IMG/VR virus record: IMGVR_UViG_2585427787_000014
From: a virus
Taxonomy: Duplodnaviria > Heunggongvirae > Uroviricota > Caudoviricetes
Reading direction: 5' to 3' (one strand)
Length of the DNA: 40,925 nt
Position 1 is the stretch's first letter, and each line of letters opens with the position of its first letter. Both the position numbers and the translations under genes were made by a program. Positions 6,290-37,660 of the stretch are shown here, one piece after another. The notes beneath the pieces were generated by a model. The model had not been told where the DNA came from. It made no database searches and saw only the letters and a program-made list of their open reading frames with translations.

Positions 6290-6379
6290 TTTACATAGCA
6301 CTCCTCTTGTGCCATAGTAATCGGGCACTGGCAAAATCCAGTGCCGGGATTGGCGTCCCGAGTTACTAAGTGGCGCATA

Positions 6380-6401
6380 CCACGCCAGACGTGGTTTTTT
6401 T
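6380..6401 (+). terminator. rho-independent terminator
   Basis: Stem CCACG / CGTGG with loop CCAGA, followed by T7. Confidence 0.55.
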
Positions 6402-6557
6402 ATGCGTTAAGCACAGCTATATCCGAATTATGGTGGGCTGGGCAGGGGTCCGAAAGGACGCCGGTACCACTTAGGCCGGTACGCCAACCTTGTCCAGTTC
6501 ACCACCAGTAATTGGCGTTGCGGTGGTGATTAAAATCACTAAGTGGAGATAACCACC

Positions 6558-31636: not shown

Positions 31637-31697
31637 CTTTACCCTCGCTTATCCACATAACTTATTGATTACATTGATAACTAAAAAGATCGTCGAT

Positions 31698-32042
31698 TCA
31701 GAACTCTTCGATGTTCCAGCCACCACCTGCTTTCTTTGGCTTAACCGTTACCCCGATGATTCGGAACGGATACTGATCTGCGGCGACTTTGGTTTTCACC
31801 CTGGCGTCGTCGGTCCAGAAACCTTTCACTTCGTGCAGTTCCATCTCGCCGGTGGCGAGCATCACAGCAAAATCGGGCGTATAGAACGTGTTATCAGCTA
31901 ACCGCAGCTTGATACCCTCGAATCGATACCAGGCGATTTCCCCTGCACGTTTACGCTGCTCAAGGTGCTGGCAATACGCAGATTCTGTTTTGTTCATCTG
32001 TCCTGTTTTGAGTCGACCAAGAGCCTGTATCTGTTTTCTCAT
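31698..32042 (-). CDS. DUF1064-like phage protein
   Basis: 114-aa ORF; start codon immediately preceded by a palindrome copy that overlaps the ribosome-binding region. Confidence 0.45.
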   Translation of the reverse strand: MRKQIQALGRLKTGQMNKTESAYCQHLEQRKRAGEIAWYRFEGIKLRLADNTFYTPDFAVMLATGEMELHEVKGFWTDDARVKTKVAADQYPFRIIGVTVKPKKAGGGWNIEEF

Positions 32043-32044
32043 GA

Positions 32045-32061
32045 TTTACCCCTGAGGTAAT
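32045..32061. promoter_or_regulatory. 17-bp palindrome copy (TTTACC-CCTGA-GGTAAT) abutting a start codon
   Basis: Ends 3 nt from the ATG of gene 31698-32042; adjacent to the AAAAACCACATAAGA element (32062-32080). Confidence 0.5.
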
Positions 32062-32106
32062 TAAAAACCACATAAGACATGAAATCAATAGATTTTAGAA
32101 TATTTT

Positions 32107-32123
32107 ATTACCCAACAGGTAAT
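32107..32123. promoter_or_regulatory. 17-bp palindrome copy (ATTACC-CAACA-GGTAAT)
   Basis: Perfect; between the P-like gene stop (32160) and gene 31698-32042. Confidence 0.55.
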
Positions 32124-32159
32124 TATCGAGACGTAAAAAAATGCGCTATCGCGCTGGTA

Positions 32160-32945
32160 TTACTTGATAAATCCTGACGCCTTTCCCCGCCTGTATTCCT
32201 CCATCAGCCACTGCGCCGGTGTTATTCCCCCCAGGGTGGCGGCGTTAGGCATACACCCGAAACTTCGCCCTGGTGGATGGTAAACGTCTCTCCCTGTGTC
32301 CGGAGGCGTACTCATGGGTTCTGGCTTTGCCTGTATGCTGATCACCGGATCGGGTATCTGCTGTCCGGAAGCCACCTTTTTCGCCCAATCATCGAGCAGC
32401 CTGCGCGCGTGTTTCTCAACCTCAATCTCGCTAAGCTGGCGCTGATACATTGCACGGCGGGTATCACATACGACCCAGTACATAACCGGATGCCGCCACG
32501 GGAATCTTTCGGGACCACCAGGATATAAACTTTTTTCCTTGCTGTACCGGTGAAACTCCGTCATCACATCGTCAATGGTGACGCCAAGAACCATCTTGCT
32601 GTCTTTACACCACTTGATAAATTGCCCTGGCGACGGCCAGAACGGAGATTCACTGGCGCGGGCGTGGCGCATACCAGCAGAAACCTGTTCACGGGTTCGG
32701 ATCCCACCTTCGGCAAACGCAGCAATCCACTGCTGTTTTGCAGCGACTTCCTGCTCTGGCATCTTCAGGTTGGTTACCACTGCCGCCGGAAACAGTTGTT
32801 TCAGCTGTTTGAAAAGGGCATCAACAAGCCTCTCTGCTGACATGTTCACCACATTGTCATTGTTGACGTACTGATGCTCATAACCTGACATGCGAGAAAG
32901 GGCTTCTCCGTCACGGTTTTGTATCGCGGTAAAAACGTTGTTCAC
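32160..32945 (-). CDS. replication protein P-like (lambda P family helicase loader)
   Basis: Similarity to lambda P as I recall it (AAKQQWIAAFAEGGIRTREQVSAGMRHARASESPFWPSPGQFIKWCKD). Proposed GTG start at 32945 preceded by GGAGGA, overlapping the O-like stop as GTGA; track ORF runs to 32960. Confidence 0.7.
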   Translation of the reverse strand: MNNVFTAIQNRDGEALSRMSGYEHQYVNNDNVVNMSAERLVDALFKQLKQLFPAAVVTNLKMPEQEVAAKQQWIAAFAEGGIRTREQVSAGMRHARASESPFWPSPGQFIKWCKDSKMVLGVTIDDVMTEFHRYSKEKSLYPGGPERFPWRHPVMYWVVCDTRRAMYQRQLSEIEVEKHARRLLDDWAKKVASGQQIPDPVISIQAKPEPMSTPPDTGRDVYHPPGRSFGCMPNAATLGGITPAQWLMEEYRRGKASGFIK

Positions 32946-33757
32946 AAGAAATCCTCCCACGCTTCAGGGCTGTTCCAGTGCGGAACGTTGTTATCAGGTA
33001 ATGTTGATTGCTTCTGTCTGCTAATCTGCAGCCGCCTTGCCAGCTTCTGCTCCCACTGTGCCTGATGGTATGCCTTACCCTCAGCCATCCAGTAAATTCT
33101 GAACTCTGCAAGTTCCTGTGCCGTTGGCAGACTGTCCAGGTAGATCCCCTGCAATGAGCTTTTCCGAAGAAAGTCATCTGATGGCTGCCATTGTTCATGC
33201 ATGACAAATTTGCCTAATTGCCCTGGCCCACCAGGAGGAGCAAAGTTATTCATCACGGCGTTGTTTGCGCCGGGGTCATGAGGCACAGAATCCCCGCTTT
33301 TTGTCCTGCTCTCCCTCTCTTGGTTAAATGACTGGTTATATGACTGGTTCTGGATCCCGTTTTTGGGATCATTCAACATCCCGTTTTTGGGATCATTCAA
33401 CATCCCGTTTTTGGGTATATTACCGTTTTCGGTAACATTACCGTTTTCGGGTTCATTGCCCCTCTCCCGGTTGCCTTTAATGTTCCCGTTTTTGGTTATA
33501 TTAAGAGAGAAAACCCGCACCCTTTTTGTCGCTCCCTTTCTCTCTCCGGTATCTGAAATAAGCCCCATTTTCATGAGCGATATAAGCCCGGCCTGCACGG
33601 TTTTTTTATTCAGGCAAGTGTCTTTAACGAGGCGTTCTATGCTGGGGTAGCAGAGGTTATATTCATCGGCTCTGTCAGCCATCGAGAGCAGTATGAGCTT
33701 TAATGACGAGCTACCTGGATCTGTCTCCCAGGCCCAATCTGTTGCATGTCTGCTCAT
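32942..33757 (-). CDS. replication initiator (lambda O-like) with HTH N-domain and internal repeat region
   Basis: 271-aa ORF; N-terminal HTH-like region (LKLILLSMADRADEYNLCYPSIERLVKDTCLNKKTVQAGLISL), central repeat-encoded segment (KNGMLNDP x2), immediately upstream of the P-like gene. Confidence 0.6.
   Translation of the reverse strand: MSRHATDWAWETDPGSSSLKLILLSMADRADEYNLCYPSIERLVKDTCLNKKTVQAGLISLMKMGLISDTGERKGATKRVRVFSLNITKNGNIKGNRERGNEPENGNVTENGNIPKNGMLNDPKNGMLNDPKNGIQNQSYNQSFNQERESRTKSGDSVPHDPGANNAVMNNFAPPGGPGQLGKFVMHEQWQPSDDFLRKSSLQGIYLDSLPTAQELAEFRIYWMAEGKAYHQAQWEQKLARRLQISRQKQSTLPDNNVPHWNSPEAWEDFL
33353..33460. repeat. iteron-like tandem direct repeats inside the O-like gene (candidate origin)
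   Basis: Two perfect 24-bp units (GATCCCGTTTTTGGGATCATTCAA / CATCCCGTTTTTGGGATCATTCAA) plus a degenerate third, then two 18-bp units (ATTACCGTTTTCGGTAAC / ATTACCGTTTTCGGGTTC); a further CCCGTTTTTGG copy at about 33484. Confidence 0.6.
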
Positions 33758-34069: not shown

Positions 34070-34083
34070 AATAGATATGAAAA

Positions 34084-34100
34084 GACCGCCGGATGGCGGC
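34084..34100 (-). terminator. hairpin terminator after the Cro-like gene (tR1-like position)
   Basis: Stem CCGCC / GGCGG with loop GGAT; on the minus strand followed by TCTTTTCAT. Confidence 0.4.
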
Positions 34101-34123
34101 CTACAGAGGGTTGTGGCTGGATA

Positions 34124-36722: not shown

Positions 36723-37660
36723 GCAACGACATCGCAAACATCAACGCACCAGTAGACACAGCAATCGCTGGAACTGCTGCAACTATTTTCAGCCCAGACG
36801 GCTTGAACCAACTGATGAAATTCGCCGAGGTAATGGCGAAAAGCCGCGTAACGGTACCGGCGCACCTCTCCGGGAAACCAGCTGATTGCATGGCCGTGGC
36901 AATGCAGGCTGCGCAGTGGGGAATGAACCCGTTTGCCGTTGCTCAGAAAACCCATGTTGTGAACGGCACGCTAGGTTATGAAGCCCAATTAGTAAACGCA
37001 GTTATCTCAACGATGTCGCCAACAAAAGATCGCATCAACTACGAGTGGTTCGGGCCGTGGGAACGCGTGATCGGTAAGTTTGTTGAGAAAACATCCAAAA
37101 ACGGCCATCCATATATCGCACCAGGCTGGACTCTAAAAGACGAAGAAGGCTGCGGTGTTCGCGTATGGGCAACCATGAAGGGCGAGGATCAACCTCGAGT
37201 GCTTGAGTTAATGCTGTCTCAAGCACAGGTAAGAAACTCCACACTTTGGGCCAGTGATCCGAAACAACAACTCGCATACCTTGCGACAAAACGCTGGTCT
37301 CGCTTGCACTGTCCTGACGTAATCATGGGCGTCTACACACCAGACGAATTACAGGAAACGGCACCGCGCGTTGAGCGAGACATTACTCCGCAAACGACCA
37401 CTGCTGCGGGAATGAACAGTCTGATCAACGCTAAACCAGTGAAAAAGCCTGATGAGCAAACGCGTAAAGCGGATAGCCGTGATCCAGAAGAAATGCTGAT
37501 GGCCTTTACCAGCGCAGCGATGAATTACAGCACTGTCTCCGAACTAGATAAGGCTTACAAATACATTGCACAAAAACTTTCAGATGATGACGAACTGCTG
37601 GCAAAAGCCACCGACGTTTACAGCGTTCGTCGGGAAGAATTAAACGAAACATCTATGTAA
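36719..37660 (+). CDS. single-strand annealing protein, Bet/Red-beta-like
   Basis: Start MSNDIAN overlapping the nuclease stop (ATGA). Similarity to lambda Bet as I recall it (TLWASDPKQQLAYLATKRWSRLHCPDVIMGVYTPDE vs GPWQSHPKRMLRHKAMIQCARLAFGFAGIYDKDE). Confidence 0.6.
   Translation: MSNDIANINAPVDTAIAGTAATIFSPDGLNQLMKFAEVMAKSRVTVPAHLSGKPADCMAVAMQAAQWGMNPFAVAQKTHVVNGTLGYEAQLVNAVISTMSPTKDRINYEWFGPWERVIGKFVEKTSKNGHPYIAPGWTLKDEEGCGVRVWATMKGEDQPRVLELMLSQAQVRNSTLWASDPKQQLAYLATKRWSRLHCPDVIMGVYTPDELQETAPRVERDITPQTTTAAGMNSLINAKPVKKPDEQTRKADSRDPEEMLMAFTSAAMNYSTVSELDKAYKYIAQKLSDDDELLAKATDVYSVRREELNETSM

What the first reader, a model, noticed from the sequence alone, without database searches (positions are those of the whole stretch)
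33353..33500. Iteron-like tandem repeats inside the O-like replication gene: candidate origin
Two perfect 24-bp repeats, a degenerate third, two 18-bp repeats and another CCCGTTTTTGG copy lie within the coding sequence of the HTH-containing initiator (32942-33757), immediately upstream of the lambda-P-like gene. This mirrors ori-lambda, which sits inside gene O. The repeats encode a repetitive peptide linker (KNGMLNDP twice). The 18-bp unit contains a 6-nt-spacer version of the dispersed palindrome.
Basis: partly seen in the sequence, partly recalled or inferred. Interest (0 to 1): 0.6.

Follow-up and report, generated by a model that had tools for sequence, protein, structure and literature searches.

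The report
Replication origin inside phage initiator gene
The repeats are real and are most likely the replication origin of a phiV10-like E. coli prophage, built like phage lambda's origin (initiator-binding sites inside the initiator's own gene) but attached to a different, very widespread initiator family whose origin I found described in no paper I could search.

Summary
Observation confirmed. Six copies of CCGTTTTYGG lie at 33354-33498 (0.13 expected in the whole window), inside a 271-aa initiator gene (winged-helix HTH_36 N-domain plus DnaT-like C-domain) that sits just upstream of a lambda-P homologue.

In 49 of 72 diverged homologues the most repeated 11-mer of the locus clusters at the same place in the gene. 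Spacings are often 17 or 22 nt, so the same DNA motif is read in two or three frames. This makes it a DNA element, not a peptide repeat. A triple GAAyC 12/13-mer follows the last site in 52 of 72 loci, against one match in the other 548 kb. The last two sites plus the 12-mers are the most conserved nucleotides of the gene. The repeats travel with the N-domain, not with the C-domain or the phage genus.

Best reading: a lambda-type intragenic origin, as a new variant of that kind. Origin firing, initiator binding and unwinding are all untested. The candidate unwinding element is only moderately AT-rich in this window. Confidence about 0.78; interest moderate.

The parts
32942..33757 (-). Initiator gene, 271 aa: N-terminal winged-helix domain, repeat-encoded linker, C-terminal DnaT-like domain
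   Evidence: ORF. Pfam HTH_36 at aa 18-67 and DnaT at aa 184-252. PHROG 1032 'replication initiation protein', E 3e-108. 97-99% identical to the phiV10 gene annotated 'replication initiation protein'.
33494..33757 (-). Coding region of the N-terminal winged-helix DNA-binding domain (aa 1-88), the presumed iteron reader
   Evidence: AlphaFold2 model with mean pLDDT 90.7: four helices plus a beta-hairpin wing, with residues 90-95 disordered. Its PDB matches are winged-helix DNA-binding proteins, including a plasmid Rep-DNA complex (5kbj), but all are weak (E>1e-3).
33483..33498 (-). Iteron 1 (distal): TAACC-AAAAAC-GGGAA, weak dyad
   Evidence: Its core is mutated (TKKG variant) in several close relatives, so it is probably the least important site.
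33459..33472 (-). Degenerate CC-N6-GG site (AACC-GGGAGA-GGGG), a possible decayed iteron
   Evidence: Sequence pattern only.
33438..33453 (-). Iteron 2: AACCC-GAAAAC-GGTAA
33420..33435 (-). Iteron 3: TTACC-GAAAAC-GGTAA, perfect 5-nt arms
33402..33417 (-). Iteron 4: TACCC-AAAAAC-GGGAT
33378..33393 (-). Iteron 5: ATCCC-AAAAAC-GGGAT, perfect arms, flanked by GATC
33354..33369 (-). Iteron 6 (proximal): ATCCC-AAAAAC-GGGAT, perfect arms. Its position relative to the 12-mers is conserved across the family.
   Evidence: With iteron 5 and the 12-mers it forms the most conserved nucleotides of the gene.
33315..33350 (-). Three 12-nt direct repeats (GAACCAGTCATA / TAACCAGTCATT / TAACCAAGAGAG), the candidate DNA-unwinding element
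   Evidence: TRF 12-bp x2.4. The family-wide triple GAAyC-N7/8-[GT]AAyC-N7/8-[GT]AAyC is present in 52/72 loci, against 1 match in the other 548 kb, and falls in two reading frames in 47/52. This stretch lies in the ~10% least stable 40-bp windows of the prophage.
33290..33326 (-). Purine-rich tract on the gene strand (81% purine) that overlaps the third 12-mer unit and extends beyond it
   Evidence: Relatives carry an A-rich tract (TAAAAATAAAAA) at this place. The lambda AT-rich region is likewise A/purine-rich on the same strand.
33002..33208 (-). Coding region of the DnaT-like C-terminal domain (aa 184-252)
   Evidence: Pfam PF17948, E 1e-15. Matches the C-terminal domain of E. coli DnaT in solved structures (9zbt, 4ou6), E 5e-21.
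32160..32960 (-). Lambda-P-family helicase loader gene, overlapping the end of the initiator gene
   Evidence: PF06992, E 5e-56. 31% identical to lambda P, E 3e-35. PHROG 109 'P-like helicase loader'.

Best explanation
The stretch from about 33290 to 33498 is the vegetative replication origin of a phiV10-like (Uetakevirus) prophage, and it lies inside the gene of its own initiator.

**Proposed sequence of events**
1. After induction, the early rightward operon expresses the initiator and the P-like loader.
2. Dimers of the initiator's N-terminal winged-helix domain bind the six 16-bp dyad sites (xxxCC-RAAAAC-GGxxx; spacing 45, 18, 18, 24, 24 bp) and form an O-some-like nucleoprotein complex.
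3. The strain opens the adjacent three 12-mers and the purine tract.
4. The C-terminal DnaT-like domain, tethered by the flexible linker that the repeats themselves encode, holds single-stranded DNA and/or recruits the P-like loader carrying host DnaB.

**Shown here**
- The repeats and their non-random clustering.
- The domain make-up of the initiator and the homology of the loader.
- The family-wide positional conservation of both elements at the DNA level.
- Their linkage to the N-domain.

**Inferred**
- That the N-domain binds the sites.
- That unwinding happens at the 12-mers.
- The role of the C-domain.
- That replication actually starts here.
For: 1. **Clustering.** Six core sites fall within 145 bp against 0.13 expected in the whole window, and this is the only such cluster.
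2. **Context.** The layout matches pR-cro-tR1-cII-O-P of lambda. A predicted promoter (34408-34380, -), small ORFs and a terminator-like site (34102-34083, -) are followed by the initiator and a true lambda-P homologue.
3. **Position and polarity.** Iterons occupy nt 260-404 of 816. The lambda iterons occupy nt 349-433 of 900, and the annotated P22 origin nt 353-497 of 816. In each case the less stable, purine-rich stretch follows in the direction of the gene.
4. **DNA-level constraint.**
   - In 49/72 diverged homologues (N-domain 36-87% identical; Enterobacterales, Vibrio, Pseudoalteromonas, Marinomonas, Acinetobacter, Moraxella, Desulfovibrionaceae, Sphingomonadales) the most repeated 11-mer of a ~4-kb locus clusters at nt 240-560 of the gene (nominal binomial P about 1e-34).
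   - In 32 of those 49 the copies fall in two or three reading frames. Spacings of 17 nt occur 31 times and 22 nt 17 times.
   - In GF-2, PPompW and H20 the same motif encodes TQKR, PKNG or DPKTE, depending on the frame.
5. **Second conserved element.** The triple 12/13-mer is present in 52/72 loci against one match elsewhere. Its spacing is 12+13 or 13+12 in 44/52. GC dips to 0.29-0.36 there, against 0.41-0.48 in the flanks.
6. **Nucleotide conservation.** Identity to five diverged homologues peaks at nt 361-440 (0.80-0.97 for 361-400) against 0.58-0.73 overall, although this stretch encodes a low-complexity linker.
7. **Module linkage.**
   - Three phages of the same genus (SPN1S, ZX5, Tyrion) share the DnaT C-domain but have other N-domains, and they lack the CC-N6-GG array.
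   - Phage GF-2 joins this N-domain, its iterons and its 12-mers to the lambda O C-domain (62% identity to lambda O 156-299). The junction falls just past where the lambda AT-rich region ends.
   - Only 18 of 116 family representatives carry the DnaT domain.
8. **Copy number.** Among 81 close relatives the core count is 4-9 with a mode of 6, and never below 4. Lambda has 4 iterons and Stx phages 6, according to PMC7466680.
9. **Fold.** The N-domain is confidently modelled as a winged helix.
10. **A possible natural mini-replicon.** An 8,461-bp circular E. coli plasmid consists of dicA-dicC-ydaT, a family member of this initiator (36% identical N-part), a P gene and cargo, with no other replication gene listed. 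This resembles lambda-dv.
Against: - There are no experimental data for any member of this initiator family in the literature I could search.
- In this window all six sites are in one reading frame, so here alone DNA and peptide constraint cannot be separated. The argument rests on relatives.
- The candidate unwinding element is only moderately AT-rich (GC 0.39, against 0.26 for the lambda AT-rich region and 0.49 for the gene). Several intergenic stretches of the prophage are far less stable.
- The loci compared are phylogenetically related (many are Acinetobacter), so the P value overstates independence.
- The 12/13-mer pattern was defined on the same data on which it was counted.
- The small plasmid comes from a single-cell assembly, and its gene table may be incomplete.
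- Direct sequence homology of the N-domain to lambda O is not detectable (BLASTP E 0.07; hhalign probability 3.6%). The only link is shared PHROG profiles 678 and 345.
Confidence: 0.78

Rival explanations
1. The repeats are true initiator-binding sites, but they serve control (titration, handcuffing, roadblock of transcription) or complex assembly only. DNA synthesis starts elsewhere, for instance in the very AT-rich intergenic stretch after the P-like gene (about 32040-32140) or near the perfect DnaA box at 31649.
For: The least stable DNA of the early region is intergenic, at 32071, 31650, 34366 and 34450. One perfect TTATCCACA lies at 31649-31657. The 12-mer region is only moderately unstable.
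Against: - Those stretches carry no repeat cluster.
- A single perfect DnaA box is close to chance. Counting sites with up to one mismatch gives 12 against 9.5 expected.
- The conserved triple 12/13-mer and the GC dip directly abut the last iteron across the family, which is the layout of an origin rather than a control locus.
- In lambda and P22 the homologous position is the origin (PMC7466680).
Confidence: 0.1
2. The repeats are a slippage-prone coding tandem repeat (VNTR) in a low-complexity Asn/Gly-rich linker. The protein tolerates them and they have no function as DNA.
For: - All units in this window are multiples of 3 and in one frame.
- Copy number is polymorphic among near-identical relatives: PKNGMLND x1-7, ENGNVT x1-5 by my reading of the linkers, NQSY x2-3; protein length 263-311 aa.
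- The start of the linker is modelled as disordered.
Against: - In relatives the same motif recurs at 17- and 22-nt spacing in all three frames and encodes unrelated peptides.
- Nucleotide identity is highest here.
- The dyad arms are kept while the spacer, and so the amino acid, changes: AAAAAC (Asn) becomes AAAATT (Ile) in GF-2.
- Copy number never falls below four in 81 relatives.
- The array is absent when the N-domain differs.
Confidence: 0.04
3. The sites are bound by another protein (a repressor, a host factor or a Dam/SeqA-type system acting on the GATC-flanked units), or they act as a recombination junction that promotes exchange of initiator modules.
For: - Three GATC sites lie within 40 bp of the 24-bp units.
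- A related dyad (TACC-N5-GGTA) is scattered over the prophage.
- Module exchange does happen near this point.
Against: - GATC is not part of the site in most relatives.
- The dispersed palindrome has a different spacer and distribution.
- The array co-inherits strictly with the winged-helix N-domain encoded just upstream.
- The exchange point in GF-2 lies after the 12-mers, not within the iterons.
Confidence: 0.05

Closest known systems
ori-lambda inside gene O of phage lambda, and the six-iteron origins of Stx phages 933W and P27
   Same: - The origin lies in the middle of the initiator gene.
- It has four or more dyad-symmetric iterons with similar half-sites: lambda ATCCCTCAAAACGAGGGAT, here ATCCCAAAAACGGGAT.
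- The iterons are followed, in the direction of the gene, by a less stable A/purine-rich stretch.
- The region encodes the flexible linker between an N-terminal DNA-binding domain and a C-terminal domain.
- A P-family loader gene follows directly.
- Iteron number varies naturally between relatives, with matching insertions in the protein.
   Different: - The N-domain belongs to Pfam HTH_36, not Phage_rep_O, and shows no direct sequence similarity to lambda O.
- The C-domain is DnaT-like, not the lambda O C-domain.
- The dyad spacer is 6 bp, not 9.
- In this window the sites are in-frame tandem units (24 and 18 bp), whereas lambda has 20-24 bp out-of-frame spacing.
- The candidate unwinding element is three conserved 12/13-mers (GAAyC...) and is much less AT-rich here (GC 0.39 against 0.26).
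Phage P22 origin inside gene 18 (annotated rep_origin, NC_002371 32840-32984)
   Same: The gene has the same length (271 aa). The origin is at nt 353-497 of the gene. The last repeat is followed by ...CCGAATCAGTCAAAC..., which resembles the CAGAAyCAGTCA that follows the last iteron here and in relatives. An A-rich stretch follows.
   Different: P22 gp18 is a Phage_rep_O protein. Its partner is a DnaB-type helicase (gene 12), not a P-type loader. Its iterons (ATCGGTAAAAC) are unrelated in sequence.
Iteron plasmids (RK2 oriV/TrfA, F oriS/RepE, pPS10, R6K)
   Same: - A winged-helix initiator and directly repeated binding sites next to an unwinding element.
- That element is itself made of three or four 13-mer repeats, whose sequence, not just AT content, is required and is bound as single strand by the initiator (PMC4081077).
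- The conserved triple 12/13-mer here fits that picture. A plasmid Rep-DNA complex is among the fold matches.
   Different: - Plasmid iterons lie outside the rep gene and are usually non-palindromic monomer sites.
- DnaA boxes are part of those origins, and none is near this one.
- Plasmid Rep proteins have two winged-helix domains. This protein has one, plus a DnaT-like domain.
HTH_36 'Eru' replication proteins of non-lambdoid Stx phages (Eru5, 6, 8, 11, 13)
   Same: The same Pfam family of N-domain in E. coli prophage early regions. PPompW-type relatives lie next to ydaT and dicA/dicC, as described for Eru8 and Eru11.
   Different: The authors state that nothing is known about the proteins involved in replication of Eru phages, and they do not mention iterons or an origin (PMC8951638). 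Here an origin is proposed for this initiator type.

Membership tests
Lambdoid intragenic origin (ori-lambda type) | Origin located inside the initiator gene, between the N-terminal DNA-binding domain and the C-terminal domain | tested here: met
   The repeats occupy nt 260-404 and the 12-mers nt 408-443 of an 816-nt gene. They lie after the winged-helix domain (aa 1-88) and before the DnaT domain (aa 184-252).
Lambdoid intragenic origin (ori-lambda type) | Four or more iterons with internal dyad symmetry | tested here: met
   Six sites, three with perfect 5-nt arms. Close relatives have 4-9 sites.
Lambdoid intragenic origin (ori-lambda type) | AT-rich unwinding region immediately after the iterons, in the direction of the gene | tested here: inconclusive
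   In this window GC is 0.39 over the 12-mers (gene 0.49, lambda 0.26), in the ~10% least stable windows. The family average dips to 0.29-0.36.
Lambdoid intragenic origin (ori-lambda type) | Initiator of the lambda O family (Pfam Phage_rep_O N-domain) | tested here: not met
   The N-domain is HTH_36. BLASTP against lambda O gives E 0.07 and hhalign a probability of 3.6%. The only link is indirect, through PHROG profiles 678 and 345 that both proteins match.
Lambdoid intragenic origin (ori-lambda type) | P-type helicase loader encoded directly downstream | tested here: met
   PF06992, E 5e-56; 31% identical to lambda P.
Lambdoid intragenic origin (ori-lambda type) | Initiator binds the iterons, and replication starts there | not testable with these tools
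   This needs EMSA or footprinting and origin mapping. The only indirect support is co-inheritance of N-domain and repeats and a lambda-dv-like small plasmid in a relative.
Iteron-plasmid origin (RepA / TrfA / pi type) | Iterons outside the rep gene, with DnaA boxes in the origin | tested here: not met
   The sites are intragenic. There is no DnaA box within 1.6 kb.
Iteron-plasmid origin (RepA / TrfA / pi type) | Unwinding element composed of repeated 13-mers of conserved sequence | tested here: met
   A triple 12/13-mer is conserved in 52/72 loci in two reading frames. Its function as an unwinding element was not tested.
Neutral coding tandem repeat (VNTR) in a low-complexity linker | In-frame units with copy-number polymorphism | tested here: met
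   Units of 24, 18 and 12 bp. Close relatives range from 263 to 311 aa.
Neutral coding tandem repeat (VNTR) in a low-complexity linker | No conservation beyond what the peptide requires | tested here: not met
   The motif is kept in all three frames in relatives, and this stretch has the highest nucleotide identity of the gene.

The most novel reading that the evidence does not exclude
The module 'HTH_36 winged-helix domain + CC-N6-GG dyad iterons + three GAAyC 12/13-mers' may be a single, ancient, portable origin cassette used by thousands of prophage and phage lineages across Proteobacteria and beyond. In this reading the 12/13-mers are not merely easy-to-melt DNA. They would be a sequence-specific single-strand element read by the initiator or the loading machinery, as the RK2 13-mers are by TrfA. 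The cassette would plug into interchangeable C-terminal adaptors (DnaT-like, lambda-O-like and others) that decide which helicase-loading route is used.
Probability: 0.35. Interest if true: 0.6.

Novelty: new variant of a known kind. Interest (0 to 1): 0.45.

Why it matters
**Practical value**
- If correct, origins can be predicted from sequence for a large initiator family. The family has 3,732 clusters at 50% identity with E<=1e-3 and 555 with E<=1e-10. The gene itself is in 424 of 5,426 complete E. coli genomes.
- The family includes HTH_36-type 'Eru' replication regions of Shiga-toxin phages, whose replication is described as unknown (PMC8951638).

**What it explains**
- Why the 'linker' of these proteins is repetitive and variable in length.
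- Why many database entries for this family stop shortly after the N-domain.
- Where initiator modules recombine.

**Experimental opening.** The conserved triple 12/13-mer is a concrete, testable candidate for a sequence-specific unwinding element in a phage origin.

**Limit.** It is not a conceptual surprise. A specialist would expect an O-like gene followed by a P-like gene to contain the origin.

Tried and rejected
- **Direct homology to lambda O or P22 gp18.** BLASTP and hhalign gave nothing significant. I rejected membership of the lambda O family. Only an indirect PHROG link remains.
- **Related-locus search with the 7-sequence alignment.** The alignment had no stretch conserved enough. 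A 4-sequence alignment worked, but the viral-contig scan returned only near-identical phiV10-like loci. These were useful for copy number only.
- **Second homologue search, with a profile.** It returned mostly short, truncated proteins. They served for the structure alignment but not for domain architecture, for which I used the representative search instead.
- **Fold search.** It gave only generic winged-helix matches with E>1e-3, so no specific relative could be named.
- **DnaA boxes near the repeats.** None found.
- **Rfam.** No RNA family in the region.
- **Terminator-like hits at 33364 and 33388 on the + strand.** These are the iteron dyads themselves, on the non-coding strand, so I discounted them.
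- **Extra CCGTTTTTGG at 37095.** No dyad arms, inside a RecT-like ORF, probably chance.
- **Literature.** I found no paper linking phiV10, epsilon15, Uetakevirus or HTH_36 phage initiators to iterons or an origin. The original epsilon15 genome paper was not found under the PMC identifier I recalled from memory, and I did not search for the phiV10 genome paper. Prior mention there cannot be excluded.
- **Co-variation of recognition-helix residues with iteron arms.** I inspected this but did not pursue it, because it cannot be separated from shared ancestry.
Full report
**1. What the window is.**
- The initiator gene is 97-99% identical to the replication gene of Escherichia phage phiV10 and its relatives (genus Uetakevirus, epsilon15-like podoviruses). 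The window is therefore a phiV10-like prophage of E. coli.
- The gene occurs in 424 of 5,426 complete E. coli genomes.
- The RefSeq record of phiV10 annotates the gene as 'replication initiation protein' and lists no origin in the stretch examined.

**2. The observation.**
- Tandem Repeats Finder reports a 24-bp unit x2.6 (33354-33415, 100% match, score 124), an 18-bp unit x2.9 (33405-33457) and a 12-bp unit x2.4 (33321-33349). These are the three best-scoring arrays of the whole window.
- The shared core CCGTTTTYGG occurs six times at 33357-33495 and once elsewhere, against 0.13 expected.
- A window-wide repeat search finds no other cluster of this kind.
- On the gene (minus) strand each site is a 16-bp dyad, xxxCC-[A/G]AAAAC-GGxxx. 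Three sites have perfect 5-nt arms. The spacing is 45, 18, 18, 24, 24 bp.
- All sites lie in ORF 32942-33757 (-), after its winged-helix domain and before its DnaT-like domain. The next gene is a real lambda-P homologue.
It missed the 12-mers and the purine tract, which extend the feature to about 33290.

**3. The protein.**
- Pfam places aa 18-67 in HTH_36 and aa 184-252 in the DnaT DNA-binding domain.
- The C-domain matches the C-terminal domain of E. coli DnaT in solved structures (E 5e-21).
- An AlphaFold2 model of aa 1-95, built on 62 diverse homologues, has mean pLDDT 90.7. It shows four helices and a beta-hairpin wing formed by the conserved DTGERKG.TKRVRV stretch. Confidence collapses at residue 90, where the repeats begin.
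- Fold matches are generic winged-helix DNA binders, including a plasmid Rep-DNA complex, and all are weak.
- The protein is not detectably similar to lambda O or P22 gp18, both of which are Phage_rep_O proteins. Its N-part and lambda O do match two common PHROG profiles, 678 and 345. This hints at distant kinship.

**4. DNA element or peptide repeat?** In this window every unit is a multiple of three and in one frame, so the question cannot be settled here. I settled it with relatives.

*Relatives examined one by one.* A translated search of phage genomes found N-domain homologues at 30-52% identity in Edwardsiella phage GF-2, E. coli PPompW prophages, Vibrio phage H20, Acinetobacter phages AP22 and Ab105-2phi and Moraxella phage Mcat8.
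- Every one has repeats directly after the N-domain.
- The same DNA motif appears in different frames within one gene:
  - GF-2 has ACCCAAAAACGGGAT read as T-Q-K-R-D, next to GATCCCAAAATTGGGAT read as D-P-K-I-G.
  - PPompW reads it as TQKR and as PKNG.
  - H20 reads it as DPKTE and as PENG.

*Relatives scanned in bulk.* A scan of one genome per species added 65 loci, from Enterobacterales, Vibrio, Pseudoalteromonas, Marinomonas, Acinetobacter, Desulfovibrionaceae, Sphingomonadales and others.
- Without using any positional prior, I took the most repeated 11-mer (up to one mismatch) of each ~4-kb locus.
- In 49 of 72 loci, three or more of its copies fall at nt 240-560 of the gene. The nominal binomial P is about 1e-34, inflated by relatedness.
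- In 32 of those 49 the copies occupy two or three frames. Spacings of 17 nt (31 times) and 22 nt (17 times) are common beside 24 nt (51 times).
- The conserved object is therefore the DNA site.

**5. A second conserved element.**
- Directly after the last, and usually best, palindromic iteron comes CAGAAyC and then two more GAAyC/TAAyC units.
- The strict pattern GAAyC-N6-9-[GT]AAyC-N6-9-[GT]AAyC occurs at nt 300-620 of the gene in 52 of 72 loci. It occurs once in the remaining 548 kb of both strands.
- The spacing is 12+13 or 13+12 in 44 of 52, so the units fall in two frames in 47 of 52.
- An A-rich tract usually follows. Mean GC drops to 0.29-0.36, against 0.41-0.48 in the flanks.
- In the window the three units are at 33315-33350 with 12+12 spacing, a minority form. 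They are followed by an 81%-purine tract.
- The pattern was defined on these same data, so the count is descriptive. The contrast of 52 to 1 is still too large to be an artefact of definition.

**6. Nucleotide conservation.** I aligned the window gene with five homologues of 58-73% overall nucleotide identity. The peak is always at nt 361-440, which covers the last two iterons and the 12-mers. Identity is 0.80-0.97 for nt 361-400. This is higher than in the region coding for the folded DNA-binding domain.

**7. Linkage to the N-domain.**
- Uetakeviruses SPN1S, ZX5 and Tyrion have initiators with the same DnaT-like C-domain but unrelated N-domains, and none has the CC-N6-GG array. Tyrion has a different 7-nt x3 GATC-containing repeat at the equivalent place.
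- GF-2 joins this N-domain, its iterons and its 12-mers to a C-terminal 144 aa that is 62% identical to lambda O residues 156-299. The junction falls just past where the lambda AT-rich region ends, and GF-2 even keeps the GAGAATTCTG.CGAATCCTC.GAC stretch found to the right of the lambda AT-rich region.
- Of 116 full-length representatives of the N-domain family, all carry HTH_36 and only 18 carry the DnaT domain.
- N-domain, iterons and 12-mers thus behave as one module, and the C-domain as an exchangeable adaptor.

**8. Population variation.** Among 81 near-identical relatives the differences are almost entirely in repeat number. The core count is 4-9, with six in 56 of 81 and never fewer than four. 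The window carries the modal arrangement. The distal site is the one most often mutated. Lambda has four iterons and Stx phages six, the extra two being weakly bound yet required (PMC7466680).

**9. Comparison with known origins.**
- Lambda: four annotated iterons at nt 349-433 of gene O, then a 26%-GC A-rich stretch.
- P22: annotated origin at nt 353-497 of gene 18, with ...CCGAATCAGTCAAAC... after the last repeat, which resembles the CAGAAyCAGTCA seen here.
- The lambda half-sites ATCCC/GGGAT are the same as here, but they are separated by 9 rather than 6 bp.
- Repeated 13-mers of defined sequence in an unwinding element, bound as single strand by the initiator, are established for RK2 and F (PMC4081077). 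The triple 12/13-mer fits that model, by inference only.

**10. A natural mini-replicon?** The plasmid collection holds an 8,461-bp circular E. coli plasmid. It carries dicA, dicC and ydaT, a PPompW-type member of this initiator family (338 of 346 residues identical to the PPompW initiator), a P gene and cargo. No other replication gene is listed and no replicon type is given. This looks like lambda-dv. It suggests that the regulator-initiator-loader segment is a self-sufficient replicon. The record comes from a single-cell assembly with an incomplete gene table, so I count it as suggestive only.

**11. What argues against.**
- No binding, unwinding or origin-mapping data exist for any member in the literature I could search. 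Those searches cover open-access papers and preprints. The epsilon15 genome paper was not found under the identifier I tried, and I did not look for the phiV10 genome paper.
- The 12-mer region of this window is only in the ~10% least stable windows. Intergenic stretches at 32071, 31650, 34366 and 34450 are much less stable.
- One perfect DnaA box lies at 31649.
- These points keep alive the rival that the sites bind the initiator but firing occurs elsewhere.

**12. Verdict.**
This is most likely the origin of the prophage, organised like ori-lambda but belonging to a different and much larger initiator family.
- It is a new variant of a known kind rather than a new kind of system.
- Confidence in the origin reading is about 0.78.
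- Interest is moderate (0.45). The result is expected in outline. Its value lies in the family-wide rule (iterons plus a triple 12/13-mer after an HTH_36 domain) and in the testable idea that the 12/13-mers are a sequence-specific unwinding element.

Noticed in passing
window 3190, 5894, 6275, 7342, 24949, 25564, 28605, 32047, 32109, 34055, 34440, 35152, 35214: The palindrome TACC-N5-GGTA occurs 13 times against 0.22 expected. Several copies sit in AT-rich intergenic stretches of the immunity and early region, and 34440 and 35152 are identical (TACCTGTTGGGTA). It is probably the site of a phage regulator. It is distinct from the iterons, which have an N6 spacer.
   Followed up: partly
window 6325-6401, 6426-6509 and 25285-25358: Rfam matches above the gathering score: isrK Hfq-binding RNA, C4 antisense RNA (the small RNA of P1/P7-type immunity regions) and one tRNA.
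   Followed up: no
window 31649-31657: A single perfect DnaA box (TTATCCACA) lies in a very AT-rich intergenic stretch between the 194-aa ORF and the DUF1064 gene. It may be chance. I considered it only as an alternative site of initiation.
   Followed up: partly
L160 (NZ_CP148379.1, whole record): An 8,461-bp circular E. coli plasmid made of a prophage early region (dicA, dicC, ydaT, an HTH_36/DnaT initiator, a P gene) plus hokD, rem and defence-like cargo. It resembles lambda-dv. Two 41,027-bp E. coli 'plasmids' (NZ_CP079771, NZ_CP079768) match the first 139 aa of the initiator at 99.3%. From their size and the non-mobilizable typing I take them to be phiV10-like phage genomes recorded as episomes, but I did not look at their gene content.
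   Followed up: partly
L157 (Enterobacter phage Tyrion) nt 380-400 of gene 1540-2307; L155 (Salmonella phage SPN1S) -720 to -260 and +861 relative to gene 1348-2163: Uetakeviruses with other N-domains carry other repeats. Tyrion has GGATCAG x3 in its linker. SPN1S has AAAGGTAATAA-type repeats upstream of and just after its initiator gene. These may be their own origin or operator sites.
   Followed up: no
proteins P0121-P0240: Many database proteins of this family are only 90-160 aa long and end shortly after the N-domain. Some clusters have dozens of members. These are probably contig breaks or gene-calling failures at the tandem repeats rather than real short proteins.
   Followed up: no
L111 (Arsenophonus nasoniae) -1034, -999 and -975; L095 and L096 (Proteus, Ignatzschineria) -229 relative to the gene start: Extra copies of the locus-specific iteron motif lie upstream of the initiator gene in a few relatives. 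They could be a second partial module or a control site.
   Followed up: no
window 34083-34102 (-): A terminator-like hairpin lies between the 76-aa cro-position ORF and the 87-aa ORF upstream of the initiator. The phiV10 record annotates it as a putative terminator too. Its placement is like tR1 of lambda, which implies that initiator expression needs read-through or antitermination.
   Followed up: no
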